Below are positions 1,161 to 63,087 of a DNA stretch of 64,000 nt, one piece after another. This DNA comes from Malacoraja senta. Lineage: Eukaryota. Position 1 is the first letter of the stretch. Each line of letters opens with the position of its first letter. The notes under the pieces were generated by a model. The model ran no database searches. It saw only the letters and a program-made list of their open reading frames with translations, and was not told the DNA's origin. The position numbers were made by a program, and so were the translations under genes. The stretch spans positions 3,350,001-3,414,000 of the forward strand of contig CM075993.1 in NCBI GenBank assembly GCA_038087875.1, written 5' to 3'.

Positions 1161-4100
1161 TTGAACCTAATAGAATAGATCCAGAGCAGATTGGTTAAGA
1201 TAGGTAAAACTATTATTGGTTGTTTCACCTTTGAACCTGAAGGCCACCATGGCAACTCGCGACGACTTCCCGAACCAAAATCAGAAGCCACTTTCTGATA
1301 AAAAATGTGCGGTAAACAGGTCACCTATCCCAGTCTGAAGAAGGGTCTCGACCCCATCCCTTCTCTCCAGAGATGCTGCCTGTCCCGCTGAGTTACTCCA
1401 GCATTATGTGTCCATCCTCGGATTAAACCAGCGTCTGCAGTTCCTTCCTACACCAAACCTTGAATGCTGTTCCTCTCTCCAGAGATGCTGCCTGGCCTGC
1501 TAAGCCCTTTCCAGCATCCTCCCATTTTTTGTCTCAGAGTTCCAGCATCTGCGGGTTTTTTTTTTTGCTTTTCTTTTGTGATCGGCAACCCTTGTCCGTA
1601 ATGGAATAATTACCGACTGAAAAGAACTACTGTTTGGGAAATTAAAAAAAGTGTATTGTCCGCACTGTTTTGCAGTACGATTAACCAGGTCTTGTGCTAA
1701 AAAAAAAAGACAAAAATACCTCAAAACTGTTTTTTCTGTGTTTCTTCATATATATTATATAAGTATATATATATATATACCTCAGCTCTCATTAACATTT
1801 TACTTTTTAATGCTTGTAAGTTTGTGATGATGATTAACCGTTTATGAAATTGTAACACCAAAGAAGAGATTTTATGAAGAACTGCTATATTATGTATGCC
1901 CCTTATCGAAACCTAACAATCATTCATCAAAAGCCTCCAAAGATTTTTGGATGTGTTGCTACCTCCCTTGGTTTTGGGGTTTTGAGTTGAGTTAAAATGC
2001 AGGAGCGAGGGACGAGAGCTTCGCGTCTTTTAACCTCGAATCATTCTTGCCTATGTGTGTGTAATGGCTGCCAAAACATTTAAGATAATAGGTATTATTA
2101 TGCTGGCCATCAATGTCCTTCTCTTAGGTGGACAAAAAATGCTGGAGAAACTCAGCGGGTGAGGCAGCATCTATGGAGCGAAGGAATAGGTGAAGGGTCT
2201 CGACCCGAAACGTCACCTATTCCTTCGCTCCATAGATGCTGCCTCACCCGCTGAGTTTCTCCAGCATTTTTGTCTACCTTCGATTTTTCCAGCATCTGCA
2301 GTTCCTTCTTAAACACAATATCCATCTCCCGGGACTTGCGTAAATGTTATGAATGGGTGGGGTTGGCTGCACTGTACATCCTTTACTGCAGGCGGGGGGT
2401 AAGGTTGATGCCGTACACTAAGGATTAAGGCCGAGAAGACGTTGGCAAGATCGCCCTAGTCTTGTAAAAGGCACTTTTCCAGACAAGCTCCAACTGTAGG
2501 CCGTACGGAGTTGAACCCGGGTGGACATTGCCTATGGGAGGTGGATGAAACATGGAAAATAGATGCATTGGGCCCTTCGAGCCAGCACCGCCATTCAATA
2601 TGATCATGGCTGATCATCCAGAATCAGTAGCCCGTTCCTGCCTTCTCCCCATATCCCTTCATTCCGTTAGCCCTCAGAAATAAATCTAACTCTCTCTTGA
2701 ATGATGAAGCAACGAAAGCGGTTCAAATCTGGGTTTAGGATGCGAAACGCTCTTCGTTGTACAATGGTGGAGGTGTGCGGAGGTCTTTGTTTGCGATGGG
2801 TTGCATCAACCACGGGCAAAATCCGAGTTTCTAATGTGCCTGCAGTTTGCTGCTAACTATTGCTCCAACTGTGAAATGGCGATTGAGGCAATAATTGTCC
2901 CAACTTGAGGTACGAAAGTCCAACTCTCACCCCAGCCTTTAAGGATGGTTGAGGCCAGGGAGTCCCACTCCTGATGTCCCATGGCTCAGTTGATATTTGT
3001 GGACTGTTTACACAAGAGGCCTGGCCACTGACCTGGTAGTTCAGGTTGAATTCATATCTCACCGCAGCAACAGGAGCAAGTGAAATTAGATTACTGGTGA
3101 GAACGCTGGCCGCGAGATTCCCGGGAAGTGGAATCTGCCCGACATTCCCAGTTCAACACACGTGCGACTTCACACTCGGAACCAAGTGTCGCCAACAGCC
3201 ATGGAATGGTTCGGAAGGAACTACAATTGTTGGTTTATTCTGAAGATCGATTAAAAAAAAGTGCCGGAGTAACTTTGGACGGGACGGGCAGCATCTCTGG
3301 AGATCATGGATAGTAAATATCTCTGGAGAAAAAGAGGTGGCGTTGAGGGTCCTTCAAACTCGAAACGTCACCGATTCCCTTTCTCCAGAGGTGCTGCCTG
3401 ACCCGCTGAGTTACTCCAGCATTTTGTGTCTATCTTAGCCATGGAATGGGTCACAAATGCTCACCCTGTGTGCTGAGGTCAAGGAATAATTGCGGTTGAG
3501 TTACACTGGGGCAATGTTCGAGAGCCTGTGGGCTCAATACCCCTGGCTGCTGAGCTCACCGTTAGAGTTTGGGTTAGTGTTATCAATGGCTGACAATCAT
3601 CACTGCTGCGGCTTCATTGACATGGTGGGTTTTGCTTGAAGTCCTCTCTTGATGCCTGAGTTAAACCATGCTGCTTTGGAGAGAAGGTGACAGAGCTTTG
3701 TCAAAGAGTCTCCTGGACTCCCACCCGACCCTCTCCTTGGACATTTTTGTGAAGTTTTTTTTTAACCTTGAGGGTTCGAAAGATACAGCATGGAAACGGG
3801 CCCTCAGGCCCACCGTGTCCAAGCCGGTCATTGATCATCTGTTCACACCAGCTCTATGCTATTTGGGACGCGGGCGGAAACCAGAGCACCGGGAGGAAAC
3901 CCACGTGGTCACAGGGAGAGCGTGCAAACTCCACGCAGGTCAGGAAGGTGGCGTAAAAGCAATCCGCTCGATATTGCAGCCGCTGACCCCTGGAGAAGAA
4001 TCGGAATGTAAGAAAGGACGATGTCTGTGGAACTGTATAACAACACGGTGAGAGGCCATTCACCCATTGTGCTTCTGCTGGCTCTTTGGAAGGATTGTCC

Positions 4101-4319
4101 AATGTGTTAAACCCCCAATGGTGATCCGGGCAACTTGTGTAGAGGCCTCTCGTATCCTGAGAGTTAAAAACGACAAAGCCTCTTTTTCACCTGAGGGCCC
4201 AGACTTCACCAGCCGCTCTTCAATGGTTAGCCCGGTTATTTGGAGGGGATTCACTGCGCTGATGTGCAATACTAGTGGTTACAAGAGCTGAACAGAAGAG
4301 GAACATGTTTCATCCACAT

Positions 4320-4817
4320 CTGTATCTTCTCCGACTGTACCTGACTCCGACTGTATCGCCAGCTGTATTTGTCTCCAAATGTATCTGTCTCTGACTGTAT
4401 GTTTGTCTATCTGTTTCTGACTGTATCTGACTCAGACTGTATCAGTTTCTGACTGTATCTGACTCCGACTGTATCAGTTTCTGACTGTATCTGTCTGACT
4501 GTATCTGACTCAGACTGTATCAGTTTCTGACTGTATCTGTCTGACTGTATCTGACTCAGACTGTATCTGTTTCTGACTGTATCTGACTCCGACTGTATCA
4601 GTTTCTGACTGTATCTGTCTGACTGTATCTGACTCAGACTGTATCAGTTTCTGACTGTATCTGTCTGACTGTATCTGGCTCAGACTGTATCTGTTTCTGA
4701 CTGTATCTGACTCCGACTGTATCAGTTTCTGACTGTATCTGTCTGACTGTATCTGACTCAGACTGTATCTGTTTCTGACTATCAGTTTCTGACTGTATCT
4801 GACTCCGACTGTATCTG
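4320..4817. repeat. Minisatellite built from GACTGTATC(T/A)G-type units
   Basis: Tandem ctgactgtatctg / cagactgtatcagttt units. Confidence 0.9.
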
Positions 4818-5816
4818 CCTCACAGCACCAGAGACCCGGCTCGACTCCCCACCTCAGGAGCTGGCTGTGTGGAGTTTGCACGTTCTCCCTGCGACGGGGC
4901 GGGTTTCCTCCGGGCGCTCCGGCTTCCTCCCACGTCCCAAAGACGCGCGGGTTCGCAGGTCCATTGGCCCTCTTGTCAATGAACGCGAACGTGCGGGGAG
5001 CGGATGAGACATTGGGCTGACGCAGGGCCGGAGTGAACGGGTGATCGATGGTCAGCGTGGACTCAGTGGCGTGACGGTCCTGTTTCCAACGCTGTACCAC
5101 TTAAGCACCAAGCATCAAAATGGAAGGTCAACCATTCCCATGTTCAAAGCCAAGCCAAGATGGCAGCATAAAGAGTGTACAGTGCATCAACACAACCCTG
5201 ATGTGAGCACTAAAGATCAGGGAGTTCTTCAAAATAAGTACAAATCTATAGGTGCCAGGTTTCAACTCTAACCCGGTCAAGGTTGTGTATGCACGGGCTG
5301 GAAGGCAAACCTTTTTGCCTCAGTGTTTTTAATTTTTAATTTTAAGTGTTACAATTTACCGTGTTTCATTTTTTTTTTAACTTCACAAAAGTAAAAAAAA
5401 GCCGTTTCATAGCTACCTCTTACAACAGTTCAGAGATTTTAAAATATTTTTTAATTTAAAATTTTAAAAAGTGTGGACTCGTCGAAACAATCGGAGAAAA
5501 GGCAAGAATGAGCCAAAAAATAGTTTCAGACGGTTACCATGGTATCATGTATAAAAAATGTTAGCAACACAAAAGCAATATATATAAAGATCTGTGAACT
5601 TGTTAATCAAGATTTGGAATGTAGACTGGCCATGCAGCAACATGCTGTAAGTCTTTTATTAGTGATTTGTATTCATTTGTGTGAATTGACTGTTGTATCG
5701 ATATTATGCATTAACTGGTAATTAGAATAGTTGACATCAATACCTCAAATAATGCTACTTATGATATTTCTGTATATTTTGGTCATCTCTCTTTGACATT
5801 CATGTGAATGGTTTTT

Positions 5817-5860
5817 TGTAATCCAAATAAACTTCTACTGCTCCCAACCTCTGTTTCTTA
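5817..5860 (+). terminator. Candidate polyadenylation signal of an upstream gene
   Basis: TGTA (5817) + AATAAA (5826-5831) + downstream U-rich tract at the end of an AT-rich, 3'UTR-like unique segment (5100-5830). Confidence 0.35.
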
Positions 5861-5937
5861 TAGTAGACTATCTTGTCGCAGAGAGCAATCGGTCTCTATC
5901 ACTTGAACGGTGGTGCAGCGGTAGAGTTGCTGCCCAA

Positions 5938-6257
5938 TGGGGCTGTCCCACTGTACGAGCTAATTCAAGAGCTCTCCCGAGTTTCCCCTGGTTCGAACTC
6001 GGGGAATTACGGTAATGGCCGCCCGTGGGTACTCGGGGCTCTCGTGGACATTTTTCAACATGCTGTTGGAAATCTTCACCAGTCTTCACGAGCTTACCGC
6101 GTTTCCCAACTACCTGCTGTCAGGGTTACGAGCCGCTAAGAGACGTCCCCGAGCTCCGACGTACCCGCTACGTACATTCCACGTGCTTACCACGAGTTTG
6201 ATTTTTTTTTTAACTCGGGAGAGCTCTTGGGTGAACTCGTACAGTGGGACAGGCCCT
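5938..6257. mobile_element. PIF/Harbinger-like MITE inserted in a SINE head
   Basis: GGGGCTGTCCCACTGTACGAG / CTCGTACAGTGGGACAGGCCC. Confidence 0.7.
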
Positions 6258-6570
6258 TTACAGTACTCGCAGCGCCGGAGACCCGGGTTCGATCCCGACT
6301 ACGGGCGCTGTATGTACGGAGTTTGCACGTTCTCCCCGTGACCCGCGTGGAATTTCTCTGAGATCTTCTGTTTTCTCCCACACTCCAAAGGCATACAGGT
6401 TTGTAGGTTAATTGGCTTGGTGTAAATGTAAATTGACCCTAGTGGGTGTAGGATAGTGTTAATGTGCGGGGATCGCTGGTCGGCACGGACCCGGTGGGCC
6501 GAAGGGCCTGTTTCCGCGCTGTATCTAAACTAAACTAAACTTGATTTTGCAAAAGGAAGTGTGGTCATGG

Positions 6571-6903
6571 TCACACACGCATGCACACACACATGCCTAG
6601 GCACACATGTACGCACGCGCACACGCATGCACACACACACGCATGTACACATGCACACACACATGCCTAGGCACACATGTACGCGCGTGCACACACGCAT
6701 GTACACATGCACGCACACATGCCTAGGCACACATGTACGCGCGCGCACACCCACATGCACACACACGCATGTACACATGCACACACATGCCTAGGCACAC
6801 ATGTACGCGTGCACACACACGCATGCACACACACATGCCTAGGTGCACATATACGCACACGCATACACACACAAGCACAAATGCGTCGCGCATTCACACA
6901 CAC
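6571..6903. repeat. CA-rich minisatellite
   Basis: Recurring palindromic CATGCCTAGGCAC in a (CA)-derived array. Confidence 0.9.
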
Positions 6904-8017
6904 ATTTTTAATTTTAGAGATTTAGTATTAGAGATAGACACTAAGTGCTGGAGTAACTCAGCGGGACAGACAGCGTCTCTGGAGAGAAGGAGCAGGTGGC
7001 GTTTCAGGTCCAGACCCTTCTTCAGACTGATCATCAGGTAAGAGCCGTCCTATATGTGACTCCAGGCTTATGTTTGAGGGTGGACACAGCAGTCTCCACT
7101 TGTTAGAATGGGCCTAACTTGCCCACACCGGCCAACATGTCCCAGCTACACTAGTCCCACCAGCCCGTTTTTTGGTCCATATCCCTCCAAACCTGCCCTA
7201 TCCATGTACCTGTCTAACTGAGTCTTAAATGTTGGGATAGTCCCTGCCTCAACTACCTCCTCTGGCAGCTTGTTCCATACACCCACCACCCTCTGTGTGA
7301 AAACGTTACTCCTCAGATTCCTATTAAAACTTTTCCCCCCATAAGCCTATGCCCTCTTGTCTTTGATTCCCCTACCCTGTTCCCCAAGAGCCTGTGCGTC
7401 TACCCGATCTATTCCTCTTATGATCTTATACACATATTATAGTGCTGTTCATATCTTTACACTTAGGGGACTTCAGGAGAAGGGTCGACTCGAAACATCA
7501 CCTATTCCTTTTCTCTGTCCCGCTGAGTTACTCCAGATTTTCATGTCTATCATCAGTTTAAACCAGCATCTGCAGTTCCTTCCTACAGTAAAATGCTTTA
7601 GTTTGGGTGCTATCCAGTCAAAGAAAAAGTTATACATGGTTACAACACAATACAATACCATTTATTGTCATTTGAACCTCAAATGAAGTTCAAACGAAAT
7701 TTGGTTTCTGCAGTCATACAAACAAGTAAAAAGACACAACACAATTTACACAAACATCCATCACAGTGAATCTCCTCCTCGCTGTGATGGAAGGCAAAGT
7801 CGTCCACAGTGTACAAAGTATAATGGGTACAACGTTTAGTGCAAAGATATAACATTGATGTTCAATAAAGTCCGATTAAAGATCGTCCACAGGACTCCAT
7901 GAGGTAGATGGGAAGTCAGAACCGCACTCTAGCTAATGAGAGGACGGTTCAGTTGCCTGATAACAGCTGGGAAGAAACTGCTCCTGAATTTGGAGGTGTG
8001 TGTTTTCAAACTTCTGT

Positions 8018-8468
8018 ACGGGATGGCGGGACTGTCATCTGCTGAGAGAATGGAGCGGCTGGGCTTCTATACTCTGGAGATTAGAAGGATGAGAGGGCAT
8101 CTTAATGAAACATATAAGATTATTTAGAGTTTGGACACGCTAGAGGCAGGAAACGTGTTCCCAGTGTTGGGGGAGTCCAGAACCAGGGGCCACAGTTTAA
8201 GAAGAAGGGGTAAGCCATTTAGAACGGAGACGAGGAAACACTTTTTCTCACAGAGAGTTGTGAGTCTGGGGAATTCTCTGCCTCAGGAGGCCGGTTCTCT
8301 GGATACTTTCAAGAGAGAGCTAGATGGGGCTTAAAGATAACGGAGTCAAGGGATATGGGGAGAAGGCAGGAACGGGGTACTGATTGGGGATGATCAGCCA
8401 TGATCACATTGAATGGCGGTGCTGGCTCGAAGGGCCGAATGGCCTCCTCCTGCACCTATTGTCTATTG
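8018..8468 (+). mobile_element. CR1 LINE 3' fragment
   Basis: Degenerate CR1 C-terminal peptide and 3' UTR with CTATTGT tail. Confidence 0.85.
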
Positions 8469-9327
8469 CCTTGCTTGATGGAAGAGTGGAGAAGAGGGAG
8501 TGACCGGGTTGAGACTAGTCCTTGTTTAGGCTGGTGGGCAGTAATGCTGAGAAATAGTGCAAAGACTGCAGTGCATTTGTAATGGCTCATGGTTGCTGAG
8601 GTTAGCGGTCAGTGTTGTGCAGTGTTCAACAGCCTGCGGTGCCTAGCAACCACAGAACAAGGGGCAGGAATAGACACAAGGGTCCCATTCCCACAATGAC
8701 CCATCTGTCCTGGCAGGGCTGCTCCATTAGCAGAATGAGTCCATACTCCAACTGGAGGAACATTCCGCTCGGATAGATTACAACCCAACAATATGAACAT
8801 TGAATTCTCCATTTGCAGTTTAGTTTAGTTTAGTTTAGTTTAGTTTAGAGATACAGCATGGAAACAGGCCCTTCGGCCCACCGAGTCCGTGCCGGCCAGC
8901 GGTCCCCGCACACTAACACTATCCTACACACACTAGGACAGTCTGAAGAAGGGTCTCGACACGAAACGTCACCCATTCCTTCTCTCCAGAGATGCTGCCT
9001 GTCCCGCTGAGTTACTCCAGCATTTTGTGTCTATCGAGGACAATTTACAATCTTTACCGAAGCCCGAATAACCTACAAACTCGCACGCCTTTGGAATGTG
9101 GGAGGAAACGGGAGCACCCAGAGTAAACCCACTGTAGTCACGGGGAGAACGTACAAACTCCGTACAGACAGGGTCTCTGGCGCTGTGAGGCGTGCACCCT
9201 TTAATGTATTAACCAGCATCTGCAGTTCCTTGCTTGTACAGAAGGGAGAGCATGTACAACTCCCCAAACCAAAATCACAGGAAGTAGTGAATGATTGGGA
9301 TACATTAGGGAGATTAGGGGATACATT

Positions 9328-10302
9328 AGGGAGGAGCCATGTTGGGGAACGACTGCTAAGCAGCAGCCGTCCGTTTAATTCACTTTTTTTTAATAGTTTC
9401 AGTGTGTCCAATGTCTCGTCTGTTGGAGTAATCTAATTTTAAATGTAGGGTGAATGGGGGTAAATATATTCTAGGTCCCTACCTGGTCGGTGAGGCAGCT
9501 TTTTCTCCGGGCTGCCCCGTCGACCCGTCCTCGTGGCCTACCAGCGGACATGGAGCGCCGTTTTCCTGGCGGGGACCGCCCAGCACCTCGGCTTCGGTGG
9601 CGGCACAGCGCTGGAGCGCTATCGCGGAGCGGGCGATGCCTTCCCTGGGTGGCCGCGCTGGATCGATGCGCTGGAGCTCCGGTGAGCTGTGACCGCCGAG
9701 TTCAACACCTCCGGGCTGCGGGACTGCGGAGAGGATCGGGCGGCGCCGACTTTAACATCGGGAGCCTGGGAGCTCCAAACCGGCGCGGCCTTGTCGGCTT
9801 CGGAAGCCGCGGCCTCCGGTGAGGAATGCGGCCGTTCCAGGTGGCCCAGCCGCTGAGAGGACCCTCCTGACGCCGGGACAACAGCACCCGGTGAGAACGG
9901 CCAGGAACATCGGGCCTCCGTAGAGGCAATAGCGGAGGCCTCAATAGGCCTGACTTTGGGGAGAACTGGGGTTGGGGACTGGACATTGTGCCTTCCCCCA
10001 CAGTGGTAACCATTGTGGGGGGATGATTTTTGTATGTAGTGTCTATGTTAGTCTGTGTCCAAGATGGCGGTCGGAAGGGAGAGTGGACGCTGGCACGGTT
10101 TGGCTGCCGCTGCTCTCTCTTCACATTGTGTTTCTGAATTTTTTTGTTTTGTCTTTTGGATCGAATTTCTGTCTTTAATTTGTGTATTGGTGATGTCTTT
10201 ATAACTTATTTTACTCTGATTATATGTTTCTTTGTTAAATTTTGTAAGGTGTCCTTGAGACTTTTGTATAGGCGCCCTTAAATAAAATTTATGATTATTA
10301 TT
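9328..10302 (+). mobile_element. ~970-bp CpG-rich non-autonomous retroelement with L2-like 3' tail
   Basis: Homologous to 45428-46380 in the opposite orientation. Ends TGTAAGGTGTCCTTG...GGCGCC...AATAAAA and (ATT)n. Confidence 0.7.
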
Positions 10303-13165
10303 CCAGGTTAGAGTGGTCGTTTGGGAAGAGTTTCATCGATGGGAGGTATTTCTATCAATGGCCACTTGAGGTCAGCATTTGCTGAATGTGTGAACATGGG
10401 ACCCAAACATCCTAGATTTACAAATCTACGGATCAGTCTGAATAGAAGAAGGGTCTCGACTCGAACCGTCACCCATTCCTCCTCTCCAGAGATGCCGCCT
10501 GTCCCGCTGAGTTACTCCAGCATGTTCTACAAGTCCGTACCCCAAGTCTTTTGAAGATAGGCACAAAAAGCTGGAGTAACTCAGCGGGACAGGCAGCATC
10601 TCTGGAGAGATCGGTCTCTGAATATCGGTCTGAAAAAGTTACCACTCAGTTTCCTATTCAATCTTTTCCCCTTCACCTTGAACCTATGGTCCTCGATTCC
10701 CCTACTCTGGGCAAGAGACTCTGTGCATCCACCCGATCTATTCCTCTCATGATTTTATTTAAAAAATGTTTTCTGATTTTATTGAATTCAGATATTGGCT
10801 TCAACAGAACAGAATAATGCAGATGCTTCAGTTTCTTACAACCAAGCCTATTATTTTGTATTCAATTACTAAATCTTAGTTTAGTTTAGGGATACAACGG
10901 TGAAACAGGCCATTCGGCCCACCGAGTCCATGCCGACCGGCAATCACCTGTACACTGGTTCTATGTCAGAAATACTAGGGACAATGTTATGAAGAAGACC
11001 TCCTCTATTGGAAAATCATGGATTGAGAGATACAGTGTGGAAACAGGCCCTTCGGCCCATTGAGTCGATGCCAACCATCGATCACCCATTCACTCTAGTT
11101 CTATGTTATTCCACATTCTCATCCACTCCCTACACACTAGGGGCAATTTTACAGAAGTCAATTAGCCTATAAAGCTGCGCGTCTCGGGAATGTGGGAGGA
11201 AAGCGGAGCGCCCGGAGAAAACCCACTCGGTCACAGGGACAACATGCATGTCCACTGGTCCTCGATTCCACTACTCTGGGCAAGAGACTGCATCTACCCG
11301 GTCTTGCAGCGCCAGAGACCCGGGTTCGATCCTGATTACGGGTGCTGTCTGTACGGAGTTTGTACGTTCTCCCCGTGACCTGCGTGGGTTTTCCCGGGAT
11401 CTCTGGTTTCCTCGCACTCTCCGAAGACGTACAGGTTTGTAGGCTAGTTGGCCTGGTGCAAATATAACATTGTCCCGAGCCTGTGTAGGGTAGTGTTAAT
11501 GTGCGGGGATCGCTGGTCGGTGCGGACTGGTTGGGCCGAAGTGCTTGTTTCCGTGCTGTATCCCTAAAAACAATCCCCACACAGTCACAGGGAGAACGTG
11601 CAAACTCCACACATGCAGCACCGGAGGTCAGGATCGAACCCGGGTCTCTGGCGCTGTGAGGCAGCAGCTCTACCCGCTGCCCCACCGTGCCGCCATCTGG
11701 TGGATCTTGAAGCAGGTTGCACTAGTGATGTGCCACCACCCCCCCCCCCCCCCCAGCTGTAGGGAGAGGGTTAATAACAGAGTCTGGAGACAGACACACA
11801 ACGTCCCTGAGCCGTCTAGGAGTGCCCTGCCCTTAGAACCAAACACAGCCACACACACACACAGCAGATAACACACTACCAGGCATCTTGGCCAACAAAG
11901 TCAGGAAGTCAGATTCGAGTAGGTTTGCCAACTTTCTCATTCTCAAATAAGGGACAAAATATGGCGTGCCTCTGTGGTGTGGTTATGGTGCTCGCCCGGG
12001 GATGAAGTGTCCCGTGTTAGCCTGTCTGTGGGACGAAGGACTTGAGAGGAATCCTATAAGTAAAACAGTACACAAAGTCTAAAGGTTGAGTGGAGAATGG
12101 CATAACATTTTACTGCACAGTGTATTGTCAGCTATGGGTCAGTGGGCAATATAGTAGGGCAGTGAATATATGGCACAGCATTGCAGAGAGTAGTGTGGTG
12201 TAACAGCATAGTGTAATGACAAGAAGTGCAGTTCGATTGATTGAAAGTTACAACATGGAAACAGGCCTTTTGGCCCATCGGGTCCATGCTGGCCATCGAT
12301 CACCCATTCACATTAGTTCGCATCCACTCCCTACACACTAGGGCCAATTAACCTACAAACCCGCACGTCTTTGAGATGTGGGAGGAAACCAGAGCACCCG
12401 GAGGAAACCCACACAGTCGCAGGGAGAACGTGCAAACTCCGCACGGACAGCATCGAACCCGGGTCTCTGGTGCCGTGATGCAGCGACTCTACCCACTGCG
12501 CCATCGTGTGAAAGTAGAAAAGAGACGTCAAGGTGATTTAGTCGAACAATTGTACAGTTAAAATTAATGGTAAATTAACAGCAAAATTCAAGGAAACTAA
12601 TATTCCATTGGTATCTTTCCAACGAACCAGTGCAAAAACAATCTCCGATTTAATTTTGCTAATGAAATTACAGGGGCTTATTCATTTCTGTCTGATTTTG
12701 ACATGTTTCCTCAGCGTGGTCTTGAAGCATTGATGTCATTCACAATGGTCACCATGGCATTTTGGAACCATTTCATGTCCATTAATGAGTTTGCTCGCTG
12801 TGTAGAATTTCTATGAATGCGCGCCGGAGAAACGTCACCTGGGACTGTGGGCGGCACGGTGGCGCAGCGGTAGAGTTGCTGCCTCACAGCGCCGGAGACC
12901 CGGGTTCCATCCCGACTACGGGTGCTGTCTGCACGGAGTTTGTACGTTCTCCCCGTGACCTGCGTGGGTTTTCTCCAAGATCTTCGGTTCCCTCCCACAC
13001 TCCAAAGACGTGCAGGTTTGTAGGTTAATTGGCTTTGGTAAAATTGCAACCATTTTGTACCTACGCCGGCAAGTGACAGTCGGATACAGGTGTGAAGGTC
13101 TTATTGACCCATCCATGTCCCAACCCCATCACTTTTCGAGCTTTCTCACTCTCACTATGATCAGC

Positions 13166-13193
13166 CTGAAGATAGGTCCCGACCTGAAACGTC
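13166..13193 (+). ncRNA. Minimal hammerhead ribozyme motif, variant subfamily
   Basis: CUGAAGA-U-AGGUC-CC-GACCU-GAAA-C-GUC, with compensatory stem changes relative to the 35088 copy. Confidence 0.6.
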
Positions 13194-13358
13194 GCCTATC
13201 CATGTCCTCCAGAGATGCTGTCTGACCTGCTGAGTTACTCCAGTACTGTGTTCTACACAAGATTAGAACATAGGGTCATAAGGTCATAAGTGATAGGAGC
13301 AGGATTAGGCCATTCAGCCCATCAAGTCTACTCTGCCATTCAATCATGGCTGATCTAT

Positions 13359-14750: not shown

Positions 14751-15398
14751 CTATCTCTCCCTCCTAACCCCATTCTCCTGCCTTCTCCCCAAAACCCCTG
14801 ACACCCGTACTAATCAAGAATCTATCACCTGCTGAGTTTCTCCAGCATTTTTGTCTACCTTCGATTTTCCAGCATCTGCAGTTCCTTCTTAAACATAAAG
14901 GGTTTAATAGTTTTGTTATTGAAGATAGACGGATGAATTGTGATAACAAGAGAGCTGCTGTGTCTGACCCCAATCCTAACCATCGGAGCCTTTTTTCTCT
15001 GAATGAAAGGCGAGAATAGTGGAGATGAATCATACTTCTCTGTTTATCTATACCTCCCACAGACTTGGCCTAATCACTGTTCAAAAGCTCGGGACTGAAA
15101 ATCAATTGGATGCAGACTAGCCCAGCCTCCACAGTGATCGGAGGCACTCTCTTTTGGCTTATACTGAGCAGAAAGTAATCTTTTTTTCTCCTCTCAGCTG
15201 AGCAGAGGGTGGGGGTGGGGGTGTGGGGGTGGGGATAGGGGTAATACAACTCCAGCTGGTTACCCGTCCACACTGAACCAGCCACCATCCTCTCTCTCTT
15301 GCTCCCTGTGCACGGAGCCAACTTTTGCCTCAATTCTGTGCTGGAAGCTGGAAAGTTCCTTAAAACTGAAGAAGTGCAACGTTGCCTTGAAAACCAGC

Positions 15399-15542: not shown

Positions 15543-15675
<133 letters not shown>

Positions 15676-44060: not shown

Positions 44061-44161
44061 GCAGCGAGCAGTCAGATCATGGGACCTGATTGTGACATTT
44101 CAGCAAATTGACCGACTCGATGTTGTGCACTAATTCGTCTTCTTCTTATGTTTCTTTGTAG

Positions 44162-52960: not shown

Positions 52961-53499
52961 CCACACTCAAAAACAAGGCGGCATAGCTTTAATGTGGGAG
53001 GTTTGAAATTTAACGGGGATCTTAGGAGGACGTTATTTTACAGACAGATAATGGTTGACATCTAGAACTTGCCTCTAGGGCTGGTGGAATCAGATACAGT
53101 TCCCAAGTTTAAGAGTAATTTGGATACACACTTTAGTAGACAAAATAAATAAGGATACGGTCCTAATGAGGGCATATAAGATTACTGTAGATGGGCAAAT
53201 TGGCTGGCATGGATGAGGTGGGCTGAAGGGCCTGTTTCTGTATGACTATGTCATCAATGGGTGCCTGGGTCCAATGAGACTGAAGACAAGGGAAGTGTGA
53301 GTGGCAACCATGATATGATGACAAACAATGTTTGGTTTCAGCAGTGCAGAAACAGGCCCTTTGGCCCATCTCATGCATGCCGGCCATTTTGCCCCATCTG
53401 CAGTAATCCCATCTTCTACTTGGTGTGGTACAGATGGCTCTAGCAATGTGGTATCTAGTTTTGGTCAGCACAGATGGCTGGAGATCTCACGGTCTTGAA

Positions 53500-54060
53500 G
53501 GACTAAAGTTTAAGGTGAAGGGTACAAGATTTAATAGGAATCAGAGGGGTAACGTTTGCACACAAACGGCGGTGGAACAAGCTGCCGGAGGAGGTAGTTG
53601 AGGCAGGGACTATCCCAACGTTTAAGACACAGTTAGACAGGTACATGGATAGGACAGGTTTAGAGGGATATGAATTAAACGCGGGCAGGTGAGACTAGGG
53701 GTGATTTTATTGAGGTGTATAAAATCATAAGAGGAATAGATCGGGTAGATGCGCAGAGTCTCTTGCCCAGAGTAGGTGAATTGAGGACCAGAGGACATAG
53801 GTTTAAGGTGAAGGGGAAAAGATTTAATAGGAGTCTGAGGGGTAACATTTTCACACAAAGGGTGGTGGGTGTATGGAACGAGCTGCCGGAGGAGGTAGTT
53901 GAGGCAGGGACTATCCCAACATTTCAGACACAGTTAGACATGGATAGGACAGGTTTAGAGGGATATGGACTAAACGCAGGCAGGTGGGACTAGTGTAGTT
54001 GGCCGGTGTGGGCAAGATGGGCCGAAGGGCCTGTTTCCACACTATATCACTCTATGACTT
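53500..54060 (+). mobile_element. Tandem CR1 3' fragments
   Basis: YKIIRGIDRVD...RTRGH...VGVWNELP peptide. Confidence 0.8.
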
Positions 54061-57000
54061 GGCAAGCAATGATGTCCAGTTTTAGAGCTTTTAGCAGTTA
54101 GCATAGTTTGAGATAATTTCACTGCAGGTCCAGTGGGAAAATGACTATTTTAAAATCATGAAGCAATTAGATTCTGAATAATTGAATGTATTAACTCAGA
54201 TGGATAAGATGATGGAGATGAAGTCCATCCGTGCGTGTGTCTTTAGATTGTACATGACATTTCAAAAGAATCAGATATTGACAGATGATGTTGAATGTCA
54301 ACTCAGGTGGATATCACGAATATCAGTCAATGGTTATATTTAAGGCAGAGATCGATAGATTCTTGATTAGTACGGGCGTCAGGGGTTATGGGGAGAAGGC
54401 AGGAGAATGGGGTTAGGAGGGAGAGATAGCTCAGCCAATTAGGTTAATGTTTGAGGAGCGTTTGATGGCTCTGGGCCGGTTCTCGCTGGAGTTTAGAAGG
54501 TTTTAGAGGGACCTCATGGAAACTTACCGAATAATGAAAGGTCTGGATAGAGTGGATGTGGAGAGGATGTTTCCACTAGCGGGAGAGTCCAGGACTAGAG
54601 GGCACAGCCAAAGAATAAAAGGCCTAATTCTTAGGAACATAGAATTGCCAATGTGGAGATTTAAGTTCAGCTGAGCCAAACGTTGTTGGCCGTTGTTGAT
54701 CTGATATCTTGTTTAAGGCAGTGGGAAGTCCTGGAGATCGCAGACCAACCCTGCTCCCAGAACCCTGCTCAACATTAAAACCAGTTACAGGGCCCACGGG
54801 CTGGCTGGCAAGCGACAGCGATTATTTATTGTTTAAGAAGGAACTGCAGATGCTGGAAAATCGATGGTAGACAAAAGTGCTGGAGAAACTCAGTGGGTGC
54901 AGCAGCGTCTATGGAGCGAAGGAAATAGGCAACGTTTCGGGCCGAAACCCTTCTTCAGAATATATTTATTTTGGTCAGCACAGATGGCTGGAGATCTCAC
55001 GGTCTTCAAGGACTAAGGTTTAAGGTGAAGGGGACAAGATTTAATAGGAATCAGAGGGGTAACTTTGAGGGGTACCTTGTTTATTTATGTTCAGCCACAG
55101 TTCATGCAATGTTGCCAGCATTGTTGGTTTGGTCACAGAATTATCAAGTGTCTTGCTTTGACTTGGTCACCATTGGTATGGCTTCCATTTCTGTGTGAAT
55201 CAGAATCCTTCCGAACAGAATAGTTGTGGTGAGCCTCCATTCAGAGTGTGTAAACACTTTGCTTTGTGTATCAATGTGCAAGGTGTGTAAATGTTGAAAC
55301 TCAAATAAATCTTGCAAATATCGTTCTGTCTTGCGAAATTCTTTATCTGTTGAAATCCCACTTCTTCCCCTGTTGTGCCTTGCTACCATCAGGATGCCGT
55401 TTTTCACTCGGGAACCTTGAAACACATGTGGCGCAGTTGGCAGAGTCGCACAGTTGGTGGCTGCCTCACAACGCCGGAGACCCCGGTTCGATCCTGACCT
55501 CGGGTGCTGTCTGTGTGTGGAGTTGCACATTCCCCCCCCGTGACCGTGTGTGTTTTCTCCGGGTTCTCCGGTTTCCTCCCACATCCCAAAGACGCGTGGA
55601 TTGGCTTCTGTAAATTGCCCCAAATTGGGTTAATATTGGGTGATTGTTGGTCTGTGTGGACTTTGTCGACCGAAGGGCTTGTTTTCACGCTGTATCTCTG
55701 AAACTAAACCAGGTTTAATCTTGACCTCAGGTGCTGTCTGTGTGGAGTTTGAGCGTCCCTCCTTCAAGTTTCATCAGTTTTCTCCCAAATTGCCCCTAAT
55801 GCGCAAGAAGTGGGATAACATAGAACTAGTAAGAAAGGGTGATTGATGATCAGCATGGACATAGCCGGCCAAAGGTCTATTTCCATGCTGTATCTCTAAG
55901 CTAAACTGAAGGCCAATTGTTCTAGCAATTCACCACATCATGCAACAGTTTAGGTGCAGCAATAGCTGTAATGAAGTACATGTCACAAAAAAAACATGCT
56001 GAACGCAACTCTTTACAAATGCAGCAAAATCAGACTTATCCCGCACATCGTGGTTTCAACAAAGACACAACTGGCAATGTCCTTCTGGAGACATTCGTGG
56101 ACAAACTTGGACTGTTTTCTCATGAACTCTGGAGATTGAGGGGTGACCCGATAGAAGTAAGGGCGGCACGGTGGCGCAGCGGTGGAGTTGCTGCCTCACA
56201 GCGCCAGAGACCCGGGTTCGATCCTGCCCACGGGTGCTGTCTGTGCGGAGTTTTACGTTCTCCCCGTGACCTGCGTGGTTTTTAGGTCGGCACATGGATA
56301 TGGAGGGATATGGATTACCTGCAGGCGGATGAGATCAGTTTAACCTGGTATCATGCTCGGCACAGACATTGCGGGCCGAAGGGCCTGTTCCGGTGCCATG
56401 CTATTTTACGTTTGAACATGGAAGTAAAGGGCTGAGTGATGTTTCATGCCAAGACCATGCATTGGGATTTGACGTAGAATTATTCCACAATGCACGGGCT
56501 GAAACAGAGGGTAGAAAATGGAAAAGAGAAATACAGCTTGCTGTGCAAACAAATCAGCAGAGCAATATTATTTGCTATATTGAACCACATATAATAGTGA
56601 CAAGCAAGCTCCAGCCTCCTACAATAAATAAGCTTGTCCAGGATTGGCTTGAGGAGAACGCTCCTTAAAGAGTTGAGAGCTCCATTCATTTCTGTTTGTT
56701 CAAAATATTTGTAATGCAGCAACTGGTTACGATTGTCCTTTTTTCCTGAATGTTTCCGCTATCTTGCTTTTCTTGTTCAGAAGATAGACACGAAAAGCTG
56801 GAGTAACTCAGCGGGACAGGCAGCATCTCTGGAGAGAAGGAACGGGTGATGTTTCGGGGTCTCTGACCCTTCTTCAGACTGAGAGTCAGGGGAGAGGGAA
56901 CGAAAGATATAGACGGTGATGTAGAGAGATGCAGAACAAATGAATGAAAGATATGGAAAAAAGTAACGATGATGGAGGAAACGGGACATTGTTAGCTTTT

Positions 57001-57160
57001 GCTAGGTGAGAACGAGAAGCTGGTGCGACATCAGTCAGAGGAAGGGTCTCGACCCGAAACGTCACCCATTCCTTCTCTCCAGAGATGCTGCCTGTCCCGC
57101 TGAGTTACTCCAGCTTTTTGTGTCTGTCTTAAACCAGCTTCTGCAGTTCCGTCCCACACA

Positions 57161-57742
57161 TTATTTCTTGTTCAGGTTCATCCTGTGCATGTTGAAGGGT
57201 CTGGGAGACAGGAGGAGAGAGCACTTGACTGCCGATGACATCGTCCTTCCTTGTGGCTTCTCCCTCTCGCTCTGGACATCGGATGCGGAGTAGAAGTCGA
57301 GGGAGGGCCTGAGCGGTGAGACGGGGCGGCTGGGCCTGGGGGGAGATGGTGTCCTGCTGGGGGGAGGGGGGACGGGGACCTGTCTGGCGTGCTGGCTCCC
57401 TTTGGCCACAGCGGGCTTGTCGACGCGCCGCCGAGCCACGCCTCTGGGCGGAGGGACAATTCGGCCCCGAGGGGACTCTGGTCGGACGGCACGGCTCCAA
57501 GTAGCCGTGGCCAGATCTCACGCCGAGTCCACCGGCCTCAGCAGACGAGCCCAGGTCTTCCCTTCGGTACGGGGAGAGGTCTCTGCCTCTTCGGTTGAAA
57601 GGTTTGAACTCCTGGAACGAGTGGGCAGCCCAAGGGCTGGACTGCCGCCCGTCTGAAGTCCTCGGTTCCAGCCCGGTCAAGGCAAGAGATGAAGCTTGGC
57701 GACTCCAGTCTTTCTCCAGAAGATGCTGACCCCCAGCTTGAG
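57161..57742 (-). CDS. Probable terminal exon (Pro/Ser-rich tail) of the coiled-coil gene; reading frame ambiguous
   Basis: Acceptor CTTTTCTCACCCAACAG and GC-rich unique sequence. Spliced as written, it stops at 57538. A different frame gives a protein-like end (...LLLSPRPFNMHRMNLNKK*) at 57161. Confidence 0.5.
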
Positions 57743-57829
57743 CTGTTGGGTGAGAAAAGAGTTGGCGGGGGTGGGTGGGAGGGGGGTGGGTGGGTGGGTG
57801 TGGGGGGGGGGGGAGAGTTGGTACCAATG

Positions 57830-58324
57830 ACAATAGACAACAGGCAATAGACAATAGACAATAGGTGCAGGAGTAGGCCATTTGGCCCTTTCGAGCCAGC
57901 ACCGCCATTCAATGTGATCATGGCTGATCATCCCCAATCAGTACCCCGTTCCTGCCTTCTCCCCATATCCCTGACTCCGCTATTTTTAAGAGCCCTATCT
58001 AGCTCTCTCTTGAAAGCATCCAGAGAACCTGCCTCCACCGCCCTCTGAGGCAGAGAATTCCACAGACTCACCACTCTCTGTGAGAAAAAGTGTTTCCTCG
58101 TCTCCGTTCTAAATGGCTTACACCTTATTCTGAAACTGTGGCCCCTGGTTCTGGACTCCCCCAACATCGGGAACATGTTTCTGCCTCTAGCGTGTCCAAA
58201 CCTTAACAATCTTATATGTTTCAATGAGATACCCTCTCATCCTTCTAAACTCCAGAGTGTACAAGCCCAGCTGCTCCATTCTCTCAGCATATGACAGTCC
58301 CGCCATCCCGGGAATTAACCTTGT
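57830..58324 (-). mobile_element. CR1 3' fragment
   Basis: CR1 C-terminal peptide and (CTATTGT)n tail. Confidence 0.85.
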
Positions 58325-58398
58325 ATTGGTCAAAGTTAGCCTTAGAACAAGAGGTCGCAGGCCTACAAGGCGAGCGGCAGAGATCGGGGCAGCGTTAC

Positions 58399-58460
58399 CT
58401 TTCACTAGGGTCTTCATTCTTGTGTTTCAGCGATTCCATTTCACAAGCCATGGTGGCCAT
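58399..58460 (-). CDS. Short internal exon of the coiled-coil protein gene
   Basis: Acceptor TTCTCCTTTCAG, donor AAG|GTAACG. 62 nt, encoding MATMACEMESLKHKNED, which continues the coiled coil. Confidence 0.6.
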
Positions 58461-58797
58461 CTGAAAGGAGAACAGGCAGCAGATTTAGCAGGTCGCCACT
58501 TTGTGTTAGCGTCTCGGCAATGCCCTTCAAATGGGAGCCTCAGATTTTCTTTAAAAAACTGAATCAAAGGTGACGGAAACAATTCTTTCAGAAGGAGCAA
58601 ACCCCCCCCCCCCCCAACCCAAACTGCCCAGAGGAACTCAATGGGCAAGAGTGGTTTATCGCACTATCTCAGTATCATTCCCCATTGAGTCTTTATCACA
58701 GCATTTCATTCACCCTCGACTAAATGTTCTCATGATATTTTGGTAACAACACAATCTAACTCTATATTGCATAAAAACGGGGCTCAAATCTCCATAA

Positions 58798-59026
58798 AGG
58801 GCCCGTCCCACTTGGCGATTTTTTTCGGCGACTGCCGGCATCATTGACTGACGTATCGGGGTCGGCAAAAGATTTTGAACATTTCAAAATCCAGCGGCGA
58901 CAAAAAAAATCGCGACACTCGAGGAAACGCCGCGGCTTTTGCACGCCACGACTTTTTCGGTGACCTGATACGTCAGTCAATGATGACAGGCAGTCGCCGA
59001 AAAAATCGCCAAGTGGGTCAGGCCCT
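58798..59026. mobile_element. PIF/Harbinger-like MITE
   Basis: TIR AGGGCCCGTCCCACTTGGCG / CGCCAAGTGGGTCAGGCCCT with TAA/TTA flanks. Confidence 0.75.
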
Positions 59027-59634
59027 TTAATATAGCAGGAATCCATGTTGCTTGATGCAAATAAGTGCTGGCAAATTGAAGTACAGTAAATATATATAGA
59101 ATTTTAGTTCTTGCAGAACAGTAGCTAAATTGGCAACACAAAATCAAGTTACAGTTCAACACTTGCCTAGGGAAATCCACCAGTGTTGCCATTTATAAAT
59201 TTATGATCCCACTAGCTCGTCTGGTCTTCCCTAAAAGGTCATATTACAGTAAATTTGGGAAATATCCTGCTACTTTGAAATTAGAAAACTGTCGGTAGAG
59301 AGAAGAAAACACATCGCATTTCCAGCTCCACTGACATTAAAACCAATAAGAGCTAACTCACCACTTTCATGGCAATGCCTTTTATAAGGATCGAAAACAA
59401 TATTTAAATATCTGAATAAATTAAGTCATTCACCCTTCATTCACCCCACTAGTTTCATTCACCCCAAAATAATTTCAGGCGCCCTTGGGTGAACCATTCA
59501 CCAGTTTAAGAAGCACTGGTTTATTGTCATGTGTCCCAGATACAACAATGACATTCTTACTTGCAGCAGCACAACAGAACATGTAAACTTAGAACTTTGT
59601 AAACAATGTACCAAATAAAAAGTCCAGTTTATAT

Positions 59635-60410
<776 letters not shown>

Positions 60411-61037
60411 CGTGGTACCTCAGGACATGTGACAATAAACTAAAGTGAATATACCTACATAAAACAAACAAACAAGCAATAGCAGTGCAAAAAGACAAAA
60501 TCAATGTCCCTGTCTGTGTAGTTCAGAGCACACGTATTTGGAGGTTGTAGTGTTTAATCGCCCGATGGCATGTAGTGTATTCCTGAACCTGGACGTTACA
60601 GTTTTCAAGCTCCTGTATCATCTTGCTGGGAAAGGGGAGAAGAGGGAGTGGCCAGGGTGCGACTCGTCCTTGATTATGCTGCTGGCCTTGCCGAGGCAGC
60701 GCGAGCTATAAATAGAGTCAATGGAAGGGAGTAAGAAAGAACTGGTTTAAATTGAAGGTAGTCACAAAATGCTGGAGGAACTCAGTGGGTGAGGCAGCAT
60801 CTCTGGAGAGAAGGAATGAGCGGCGTTTCGGTTCGAGACCCTTCTTCAGACTCTTCTCTCCAGAGATGCTACCTCACCCGCTGAGTTACTCCAGCATTTT
60901 GTGTCTACCTTCAATGGAAGGGAGGTTGGTTTGCCTGACGGTCTGGGCTGCGTCCACAATTCGCCGCATTTTCTTGCAGTCTTGGATGGGGCTGTTCCCA
61001 AACCAAGCTGCCATGCATGCCGATAAAATGCGATCAC

Positions 61038-61193
61038 CTTTTGTCTTTTGCTGTCGAGCTGATGCTGCAGCTGATGCATTTCCTCCTGCAGCTGGTGGAA
61101 GTTCTGGCAAGTGGCACGTTCCTTCAACCGGTGGCTCTGCCTCTCCAGAGCCCGCTGCTCCTCCTCCTGAGTCTTCACCATTTCTCCCACATT
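61038..61193 (-). CDS. Internal exon of the coiled-coil protein gene
   Basis: Acceptor TTTTGCTTGTGGCAG, donor AAG|GTGATC. 156 nt, phase 0-0. E/Q/K/R-rich heptad-like peptide NVGEMVKTQEEEQRALERQSHRLKER...LQEEMHQLQHQLDSKRQK. Confidence 0.7.
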
Positions 61194-61960
61194 CTGCCAC
61201 AAGCAAAAAGGTCACCACAGTCAGTCAAACACGACCTACTGTCATGTAGTACTTTCCAATCTAATGCCTTGGAACTGCTAGCAAGAAACTATTAAAAAAC
61301 TGCAGATGCCAAAAATCTGAAACAAAAAACAACAAGTGGTGGAAACACTCAACATAAATTTAGAAAAAATTAGGAGTGACATCATCGAACCCTTGGTTAA
61401 ATTTGATAGAACTTGGGGAAGCTTTATTCAACATTTTCACACGATATAAATTGTCCCCTCTCCAAACGTTATAATAATTCTTTTACCTTTATTCGGTGGA
61501 ACGGACTTGACGACAAACAGGGATTTAAATTGTTGAAATTCTTTGTAGCCCAGATTTTGTTTTGCTTTTTTTTTTAAGTTTAGGGGGGTTTTGTTTTTCT
61601 ATTTTTTCTCTTTTTTTCTTTTTTTTTTCTTTTTATCTTTTTGTTTTTTATATACATACAAGTTATCTTTTAAACACTTAACTATATTTACATAGAGACC
61701 GGGAGGTCTATATCCAATGTGTATTTTGACACTGGACTCATACTTAGGTTATACCTGTTATTAATGTTATCCTGATCCCTATGTATCAATATCGCTGTCA
61801 TGTTTATCATTATTGGGGGGGTGTTGTTTTGTTTTTGTTTTTGAAAAAAATTAATAAAGAGATTTTAAAAGAAAGAAAGAAACACTCAACAGGTCAGTCT
61901 GCACCTGCGGAGAGAGAATGTGTAGGAAGGAACTGCAGATGCTGGTTATTAACCGTAGAT

Positions 61961-62155
61961 CAGTGGTTCTTAGCCCTTTTGGCACCAGTACGCGCGTATG
62001 TGAACAAAATACTGTGTGTGGTATGTACCTTTGTTAGGTTCCTAATCATGGGCTCAACAAATTGATATGTTATTTGTGTCTCCTTCATGACCCCTAGCAA
62101 AGCCCCAAACGACCCCCATAGGGGGGGTCACAACCCCCCAGGTTAAGAACCACTA
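61961..62155. mobile_element. hAT (Charlie-like) MITE
   Basis: TIR CAGTGGTTCTTA / TAAGAACCACTA with an 8-bp TSD CCGTAGAT/CTGTAGAT. Confidence 0.75.
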
Positions 62156-63087
62156 CTGTAGATGGACACAAAGTGCTGGGGTAACTCAGCGGGTCATAAG
62201 TCATAACATCATAAGCGATAGGAGTAGAATTAGGTCATTCGGCCCATCAGGTCTACTCTGCCATTCAATCATGGCTGGTCTATCTTCTTGAGGAGAAGAA
62301 GGAGAAGACCCTTCTTGAAGAAGGAGAAGACCTCGACCCGAAACGTCACCCATTCCTTCTCTCCAGAGATACGGCCCGTCCCGCTGAGTTGCTCCAGCAT
62401 TTTGTGCCTACCTGTGACCCATTGTTGGCTGGGGAAGGAGGATACAAGGATGTGAACAGTGGAACTGGTAGGATGACTAGGGTGGGGGAGAGAGGGTGGG
62501 GAATGCAGGATAGTCCGTGTGAATATTGGTGTCTCATTGTGCGGGGAATCTACACAACTCACCTCGGTGAGGCTCTGTATTCAGCAGCCACACGGCGAGG
62601 GCTACATTAGTATTGCAAACTTATTAAAGGAGCACTGAAAGTCCAGAGACAATGAGCGACTTGTCTATCGCCAGCGATGTACTGTAACTCAACCCCTCTG
62701 TCCTACTTTTCTCGAGGAAACTGAGCCCTTGGTGACTACTTTCAGCTAAACTATGGTTCAATTTATCCGACGGAAGAATGCTCGCACATTCCCTTCCAAA
62801 TTCTCTGCTTCTGTTGCTATGGAAGCAAGATTTTTTTTATTTAAAAAAAATTAATTCAATCAGAATAGTTGTTTGCCTGCAAGTGGAGTGCGGAGCTCTC
62901 AACATTGGCCCATTTCCTTTATCATCGTTTTTTTTTCCACATCTTCCATTCATTAATCGTTACCTCTCTCCATCATCATCTATATCTCTCGTTTCCCTTT
63001 CCCCTGACTTTCAGTCTGAAGGAGGGTCTCGACCCGATACGCCACCCATTTCTTCTCTCCAGAGATGCTGCCTGTCCCGCTGAGTTA

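What the first reader, a model, noticed from the sequence alone, without database searches (positions are those of the whole stretch)
1330..63060. Many minimal hammerhead-ribozyme motifs with covariation, carried by Penelope-like terminal repeats
Seen: one of the most abundant short repeats contains CTGAAGA-A-[stem II]-GAAA-C-GTC. Examples: 35088-35115(-), 17827-17854(-), 13166-13193(+), 8943-8970(+), 23784-23811(+), 39747-39774(+), 45155-45182(+). Stem II covaries (GGGUC/GACCC, GGGUU/GGCCC, AGGUC/GACCU), as does the first stem I pair (U-A, U-G, C-G). Two copies lie directly 3' of GIY-YIG coding remnants. Established: Penelope-like elements carry minimal type I hammerheads with a tiny palindromic helix III that cleave mainly as dimers. 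Inference: sense-strand copies in the synaptotagmin introns could be cleavage sites in the pre-mRNA.
Basis: partly seen in the sequence, partly recalled or inferred. Interest (0 to 1): 0.7.

Follow-up and report, generated by a model that had tools for sequence, protein, structure and literature searches.

The report
Penelope retrotransposon ends with minimal hammerheads
This skate- or ray-like genome window holds about 50 short, mostly decayed ends of a Penelope-like jumping gene, six of which keep an intact minimal hammerhead motif that is predicted to self-cleave; such motifs are a known feature of these elements, and they are unlikely to cut the host gene's RNA.

Summary
The repeat is the 3' end (pseudo-LTR plus optional tail) of a Neptune-like Penelope retrotransposon in a skate- or ray-like genome. 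There are 53 pieces; 15 keep both core boxes and 6 keep an intact minimal type I hammerhead (0 in 60 random windows). Three pieces follow GIY-YIG remnants. Covariation inside the window is weak and mostly wobble or CpG decay. Across distant relatives it is clear: 28 of 73 loci with related GIY-YIG genes carry the same motif downstream, sense strand only, with compensated helices. This matches Cervera and de la Peña 2014. The idea that intronic copies cut the synaptotagmin pre-mRNA is not supported: one sense intronic copy has an intact core, but its helix I is 1 bp and it lies in an inverted repeat, and the family shows no significant sign of selection. Two side observations are less ordinary. 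Copy 5' ends pile up at the ribozyme's 5' half and not at the cleavage site. This lineage's motif also has a 2-bp helix I and is predicted to fold into a self-blocking hairpin, unlike its relatives.

The parts
13166..13193 (+). Intact minimal hammerhead core, type C (AGGU/CCCG/ACCU, bulge U, helix I C-G, G-C)
17827..17854 (-). Intact core, type B (GGGU/UUCG/GCCC, GUU triplet), 120 nt after the GIY-YIG stop
17975..18304 (-). GIY-YIG endonuclease remnant, 5'-truncated end of the Penelope-like ORF
   Evidence: Pfam PF01541 E 4e-4, 21 bits, below the 22.6 cut-off; 60-84% identical to chondrichthyan proteins, one with RT plus GIY-YIG
35088..35115 (-). Intact core (GGGU/CUCG/ACCC, GUC), antisense in synaptotagmin-like intron
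35223..35387 (-). GIY-YIG remnant with an internal deletion, stop codon 107 nt before the core
38917..38944 (-). Intact core in a rearranged copy, antisense in intron
39747..39774 (+). Only intact sense-strand core in the introns; helix I 1 bp; inside inverted pair 39623-39841
54931..54958 (-). Intact core, type B, truncated just 5' of the core (helix I 1 bp)
8943..8970 (+). Damaged core (stem II mismatch)
23784..23811 (+). Damaged core (ACAU, helix III palindrome lost)
29379..29406 (-). Damaged core (ACCU); helix I C-G
44385..44561 (.). Head-to-head pair of two damaged cores (44496-, 44498+) with a 12-bp target-site duplication, in the last intron
44931..45250 (+). Long copy from the last ORF codons through the pyrimidine-rich 3' UTR; core 45155-45182 damaged (ACAU); sense in last intron
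41965..42400 (-). Third GIY-YIG remnant plus UTR plus terminal repeat with tail; stem II deleted
8683..8810 (+). Weak GIY-YIG remnant, separated from the 8943 copy by a microsatellite and another repeat
   Evidence: tblastn E 0.03
3201..3438 (.). Head-to-head unit, 13-bp target-site duplication
31651..31898 (.). Head-to-head unit, 12-bp target-site duplication, all cores truncated
56779..57164 (.). Head-to-head unit, 12-bp target-site duplication
60729..60916 (.). Head-to-head unit, 14-bp target-site duplication
361..63087 (.). Range over which the 53 family pieces lie
30845..48911 (+). Host synaptotagmin-like gene, five coding exons: 30845-30875, 33646-34493, about 42780-42948, about 44161-44328, 48759-48908

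Best explanation
These repeats are the short, mostly decayed 3' ends of a Penelope-like retrotransposon (likely Neptune-type), and each end carries the element's minimal type I hammerhead motif, which likely serves the active parent element as a weak self-cleavage site needing a dimer or the element's protein, while the scattered copies are likely inert. Shown: the order GIY-YIG ORF end, 107-220 nt pyrimidine-rich UTR, hammerhead motif, about 70 nt of repeat, optional tail of about 35 nt; head-to-head pairs with target-site duplications; the same motif behind related GIY-YIG genes with compensated helices. Inferred from the literature: reverse transcription starts at either of two sites that define the two 3' ends, and cleavage needs two ACGU palindromes to pair. 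Inferred here: the template is uncleaved RNA, because 5' ends avoid the cleavage site and pile up in the 5' half of the ribozyme; selection acted on the parent elements and not on the copies.
For: GIY-YIG remnants directly upstream of three pieces. Relatives of that protein carry RT, a Cys linker and GIY-YIG (P0044). 3' ends are bimodal: 18 of 53 at model positions 230-236 and 22 of 53 at 262-279, like the optional 30-40 bp tail (PMC8557442 passages; PMC11167929). 5 of 10 head-to-head units tested have 12-14 bp duplications against 54 of 2000 random pairs with 10 or more. The motif fits the published consensus CUGANGAH G..C GAAAN palindrome NUH (PMC4209133 supplement). 28 of 73 metagenome loci with a 42-56% identical GIY-YIG have the full descriptor 95-306 nt downstream, 0 antisense, 0 of 1460 shuffles. 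With no pairing required, 40 of 73 have both boxes; over 9 cluster representatives plus 3 window types, helix I pair 1 pairs in 12 of 12 (shuffled 5.7), pair 2 in 11 of 12, stem II pair 2 in 12 of 12 and pair 4 in 10 of 12. L006 and L038 hold RT motif, linker, GIY-YIG and hammerhead in one locus. Core positions in type-A pieces differ from the majority at 13 of 242 cells against 179 of 2017 in the flank, p = 0.067. 27 of 53 5' ends fall at model positions 127-152 and 0 at 160-165, the cleavage site being 162/163.
Against: No cleavage was measured. No full-length element lies in the window, so RT and linker are seen only in relatives. Helix I is 2 bp in all three window types while 8 of 9 related clusters pair a third position or more, and the hammerhead fold is not the predicted ground state: P(stem II) 0.00-0.22 in 8 of 8 window copies against 0.87-1.00 in 8 of 8 relatives (first three pairs scored there, four), so this lineage's motif could be vestigial. 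The core is slightly better kept than the flank (5.4% against 8.9%), which leaves some room for selection, though the flank figure includes subfamily differences. 33 of 73 related loci show no core boxes within 500 nt. The 12 representatives are related, so the shuffle p-values are not true probabilities.
Confidence: 0.88

Rival explanations
1. Sense-strand copies in the synaptotagmin-like introns cut the pre-mRNA, as monomers or as dimers in cis or trans, and so affect its processing.
For: One sense copy (39747) has an intact core and palindrome. Fewer sense than antisense pieces in the introns, 6 against 11, as expected if sense copies were harmful. The family is very abundant, so partners in trans could exist. 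Related retrozymes are depleted in Xenopus introns (bioRxiv 10.64898/2026.07.22.740005, passages).
Against: The strand bias is not significant (p = 0.33). 39747 has a 1-bp helix I, lies in an inverted repeat (z = -10), and its active dimer is predicted at +5.1 kcal/mol against -30.4 for the best dimer. The other sense copies lack the CUGA box or the palindrome; P(stem II) is at most 0.06 for the 4 sense copies folded in 270-nt context. Published minimal motifs show no activity as monomers, low activity as dimers (PMC4209133), and the anole motif needs the element's protein, with no RNA-seq ends at the site (PMC11167929).
Confidence: 0.04
2. In this lineage the hammerhead is vestigial: the core survives as an inherited or protein-binding signal, but the 2-bp helix I and the competing hairpin prevent cleavage even in the active element.
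For: Helix I third position is A-C in all three window types. A hairpin that pairs the core and the 5' strand of stem II with the pyrimidines after the cleavage site dominates the predicted ensemble. In the anole element, ribozyme mutants do not affect insertion in vitro.
Against: All three subfamily types keep every core base, stem II, the palindrome and both helix I pairs through changes. Two-bp helix I motifs are published for Drosophila virilis, Culex and Oikopleura elements. Folding programs do not score hammerhead tertiary contacts or bound protein.
Confidence: 0.2
3. The motif is a chance look-alike within an abundant repeat.
For: Rfam hammerhead models do not hit; covariation in the window is weak.
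Against: The same core stands at the same place behind related GIY-YIG genes with different, compensated helices; 0 hits in random controls.
Confidence: 0.01

Closest known systems
Minimal type I hammerheads (min-HHR) in pseudo-LTRs of metazoan Penelope-like elements (Cervera and de la Peña 2014, PMC4209133; Lünse et al., PMC5785218, seen only as cited in the review PMC6765202)
   Same: CUGANGA core, one extra base before stem II, G10.1-C11.1 pair, GAAA-C-G-U-H with no loop 3, position downstream of the GIY-YIG ORF, mostly solitary truncated copies, close pairs on opposite strands.
   Different: Helix I is 2 bp (published 4-5 bp in Schistosoma, 2 bp in D. virilis), stem II is 4 bp with a tetraloop (published 7-8 bp in Schistosoma). 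No cartilaginous fish name among the terms searched in that paper's supplement. Density here is higher: 53 pieces and 6 intact cores in 64 kb, against about 4,000 and 9,000 motifs per genome reported for coelacanth and Xenopus.
Neptune (or Nematis) clade of endonuclease-bearing Penelope-like elements (PMC8557442)
   Same: C-terminal GIY-YIG; CX2-5CXXC linker in close relatives (P0041, P0043, P0044) and in 8 of 10 loci checked; 5' truncation, inverted 5' copies, optional tail.
   Different: No RT or linker inside the window; no tree was built, so Neptune and Nematis were not told apart.
Poseidon element PAc of Anolis (PMC11167929)
   Same: Two 3' ends that define a tail; copies that look made from uncleaved RNA.
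   Different: PAc's ORF starts in stem II; no ORF start could be placed here.
Animal non-LTR retrozymes (PMC7229834; bioRxiv 10.64898/2026.07.22.740005)
   Same: Short non-coding repeats with type I hammerheads, related to pseudo-LTRs.
   Different: No tandem array of intact motifs in the window; copies are single or head-to-head.

Membership tests
Endonuclease-bearing Penelope-like element | C-terminal GIY-YIG endonuclease upstream of the terminal repeat | tested here: met
   Three remnants; the longest scores just under the Pfam cut-off and is 60-84% identical to chondrichthyan relatives
Endonuclease-bearing Penelope-like element | RT in the same ORF | tested here: inconclusive
   Absent from the truncated window copies; present in relatives P0044, L006 and L038
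Endonuclease-bearing Penelope-like element | 5'-truncated copies, inverted 5' partner, optional 30-40 bp tail, target-site duplications | tested here: met
Endonuclease-bearing Penelope-like element | Full-length ORF between two direct pseudo-LTRs | not testable with these tools
   No genome held; none in the window
Neptune clade | CX2-5CXXC linker between RT and endonuclease | tested here: inconclusive
   Present in relatives; the window remnants begin after it
Neptune clade | RT phylogeny | not tested
   No reference RT set on hand
Minimal type I hammerhead | CUGANGA and GAAA boxes around stem II, extra base at 9/10.1, NUH triplet | tested here: met
   6 intact copies; consensus
Minimal type I hammerhead | Palindromic helix III without loop | tested here: met
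   ACGU in 8 of 12 copies with both boxes
Minimal type I hammerhead | Helix I closing the motif, kept by compensatory change | tested here: met
   2 bp in the window; pair 1 holds in 12 of 12 and pair 2 in 11 of 12 representatives
Minimal type I hammerhead | Site-specific self-cleavage as dimer or with protein | not testable with these tools
   Needs an assay; only contigs, no raw RNA reads, were available
Non-LTR retrozyme | Tandem units each with an intact hammerhead | tested here: not met
   No two intact cores in tandem among 53 pieces; none among tandem repeats of 26000-50000
Domesticated intronic hammerhead | Monomer-competent fold in the sense strand, kept under selection | tested here: not met
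   orthologous positions in other species not tested

The most novel reading that the evidence does not exclude
This skate/ray lineage carries a switchable hammerhead: a conserved hairpin locks the catalytic core until the element's protein or a partner opens it, and the ribozyme's 5' edge (a pyrimidine tract plus CAG that looks like a splice acceptor, as in D. virilis Penelope) marks where the RNA template begins or reverse transcription stalls, so the element mass-produces 100-140 nt ribozyme-bearing ends as a SINE-like family of very high copy number.
Probability: 0.2. Interest if true: 0.45.

Novelty: new member of a known kind. Interest (0 to 1): 0.17.

Why it matters
Modestly. It extends Penelope-associated minimal hammerheads to a skate/ray-like genome, where I found no report (searches and the supplement search), at a density that would make this one of the more abundant ribozyme-like motifs in a vertebrate if the window is typical. 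The pile-up of 5' ends at the ribozyme's 5' half, with none at the cleavage site, bears on the open question of what these ribozymes do in Penelope transposition and can be tested on any skate assembly. It gives no evidence for regulation of a host gene.

Tried and rejected
Rfam scan at E up to 1: no hammerhead family, only sub-threshold miRNA hits on microsatellites and inverted repeats. Whole genome: none held, so no genome-wide count, R-scape run or full-length element. Exact repeat pattern in viral and metagenome contigs: 0 and 0. GIY-YIG alignment in viral contigs: 1 weak locus, L001, not used. Sequencing runs: no RNA holder listed; all four runs laid are contigs, so ends, strand and expression could not be read and no end pile-up table was given. 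Intron idea (donor-like GT at the ORF stop to the CAG before helix I): no such joint among the 15 joints shown, 279 not shown; the donor is missing in the 17854 copy, and splicing would not lengthen helix I; left open. Covariation of the competing hairpin: not above shuffles, 109 of 500, so it stays a folding prediction. The idea that inverted partners free the core: P(stem II) stayed at or below 0.06 in long context. The idea that copies derive from cleaved RNA: 0 of 53 5' ends at the site. Lünse et al. (PMC5785218) is not held. One supplementary file of PMC4209133 could not be searched, and the bioRxiv preprint's supplements, which name its one chondrichthyan genome, are closed; either may already list shark or skate motifs. 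Earlier scan notes: no look-alike by sequence, none for the first word search.
Full report
Setting. The window is animal DNA rich in repeats. Its one identified host gene is synaptotagmin-like, on the + strand, 73% identical to a Rhinoraja longicauda protein and 58-68% to most other shark and ray proteins, which points to a skate or ray relative. Five coding exons run from 30845 to about 48908 with GT/AG borders. No whole genome is held. Upstream non-coding exons were not mapped.

Observation. The seven listed stretches exist. A profile built from window copies finds 53 pieces, 27 on + and 26 on -. Of these, 15 keep both core boxes, 12 also keep U16.1 at the standard spacing, and 6 are intact. 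A relaxed descriptor gives 6 hits in the window and 0 in 60 random windows of the same dinucleotide make-up. Stem II is 4 bp with a tetraloop; helix I is 2 bp; helix III is the ACGU palindrome. Three sequence types are visible: GGGU/CUCG/ACCC, GGGU/UUCG/GCCC and AGGU/CCCG/ACCU.

Covariation. On 27 of the 53 pieces the covariation score is 0.180 against 0.154 +/- 0.013, with 19 of 500 shuffles as high, a level that relatedness alone can give. Most changes are one-sided, and CpG positions are the most changed (29 of 169 cells in the motif). Stronger evidence came from outside. An alignment of the window's GIY-YIG remnant with 23 relatives fetched the best 80 of 568 related metagenome stretches (42-56% identity). 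Of the 73 with at least 150 nt downstream, 28 carry the full descriptor 95-306 nt after the match, none on the opposite strand and none in 1460 shuffles. Asking only for the two boxes gives 40 of 73, in 9 clusters, one of them a mis-registered singleton. Over these 9 and the 3 window types, helix I pair 1 pairs in 12 of 12 with four pair types, pair 2 in 11 of 12, pair 3 in 9 of 12 (the three misses are the window types), stem II pair 2 in 12 of 12 and pair 4 in 10 of 12; stem II pairs 1 and 3 barely vary and say little. The motif is therefore a conserved RNA structure of this element group.

Element. GIY-YIG remnants end 120 nt before the 17854 core, 107 nt before the 35115 core and about 220 nt before a copy with a deleted stem II at about 42090; a weak fourth lies at 8683-8810. 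Relatives carry RT, a CX2-5CXXC linker and GIY-YIG; the linker marks Neptune and Nematis (PMC8557442, passages). 3' ends fall in two groups about 35 nt apart (18 and 22 of 53), matching the optional tail, which in the anole element is the stretch between two reverse-transcription start sites (PMC11167929, parts 1-2 of 4). Head-to-head pairs are common, and 5 of 10 tested have 12-14 bp target-site duplications, the usual Penelope layout (PMC3846280, passages). Contigs of run X23, which match the unique flanks without a difference at depth 35-43, give summed depth near 3e7 over the motif. The tool warns that this is no copy number; it shows only that the family is very large. The same repeat is abundant in three other runs.

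Mechanism. From the literature: minimal motifs did not cleave as monomers and cleaved weakly as dimers (PMC4209133, parts 1-2 of 4 and supplement part 2); the anole motif cleaved only with the element's protein and was dispensable for insertion in vitro. From this window: 27 of 53 5' ends lie at model positions 127-152, from helix I to stem II, a rate of 0.036 per nt against 0.002-0.013 elsewhere, and none lies at 160-165 around the cleavage site. In one search, depth falls 23-fold just 5' of helix I and about 2,000 loose ends with unrelated flanks map 2-3 nt before the core; part of the fall reflects UTR divergence between subfamilies. I infer that copies come from uncleaved RNA and that cDNA synthesis often ends or folds back at the ribozyme. 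Whether this is a transcript start, a splice acceptor (pyrimidine tract plus CAG, as described for D. virilis) or stalling is open.

A lineage-specific point. In 54-nt context stem II has probability 0.00-0.22 in 8 of 8 window copies, in seven of them because the purine-rich core pairs with the pyrimidines after the cleavage site, whereas it is 0.87-1.00 in 8 of 8 relatives (L043 left out). This competing hairpin shows no covariation above shuffles. It may be a switch, a sign of decay, or an effect of base composition.

Host-gene cleavage. The four introns hold 17 pieces, 6 sense and 11 antisense (p = 0.33). Only 39747 is an intact sense core; it has a 1-bp helix I, lies in a long inverted repeat, and has no intact sense partner between the first and last coding exon. 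Core positions are not significantly better kept than the flank (5.4% against 8.9%, p = 0.067). I rate a host role at about 4%.

Novelty. The association, the architecture and the dimer model are published; I also read passages of a review (PMC6765202), of PMC7229834 and of the 2026 retrozyme preprint (part 1 and passages), which finds retrozymes in its one chondrichthyan genome. Five literature searches showed no paper on this motif in skates or rays; unread supplements and subscription papers may hold one. Verdict: a new member of a known kind, low interest, with two testable side observations.

Noticed in passing
window 20694-22313 (-) and 36738-38333 (+): Two Tc1/mariner copies, 98% alike over 1442 nt, with about 180-200 nt inverted ends; the first has an open 343-codon transposase frame, suggesting recent activity.
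   Followed up: partly
window 30845-48911 (+): The synaptotagmin-like gene belongs to a group found in cartilaginous fish, coelacanth, amphibians, reptiles and birds and named inconsistently by sources (SYT2, 4, 5, 7, 9, 11-like); no mammalian protein among the 40 hits.
   Followed up: partly
window 24303-25484 (-) and 47135-48439 (-): Long open LINE-type reverse transcriptase fragments, with many shorter 3' pieces across the window; CR1-like by recall.
   Followed up: no
window 12849, 16072, 33059, 41054, 56161, 63787 and others: A second abundant family with a tRNA-like head (D11, D14, D15); resembles the elasmobranch HE1 SINE by recall. Penelope ends are often adjacent to or nested in it.
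   Followed up: no
window 31325-31399 (-): ARAGORN calls a tRNA-Ala(GGC); likely a SINE head.
   Followed up: no
window 17855-17975 (-), 35116-35225 (-), 44931-45154 (+): The UTR before the hammerhead is a pyrimidine tract ending in CAG one base before the first helix I pair's U, and in three of four copies begins with a donor-like GTAA overlapping the stop codon; possible retained intron, not confirmed.
   Followed up: partly
L006, L038: Metagenome loci with RT motif, Cys linker, GIY-YIG and minimal hammerhead in one piece; L038 has only 2 stops in the frame over 2.8 kb and a U-A swap in helix III (AUAU).
   Followed up: partly
P0041, P0042, P0043, P0052: Annotated skate and shark proteins in which this GIY-YIG remnant is fused to unrelated domains (DUF4518, LINE RT, receptor-transporting protein), likely gene-model artefacts or exonised repeats.
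   Followed up: no
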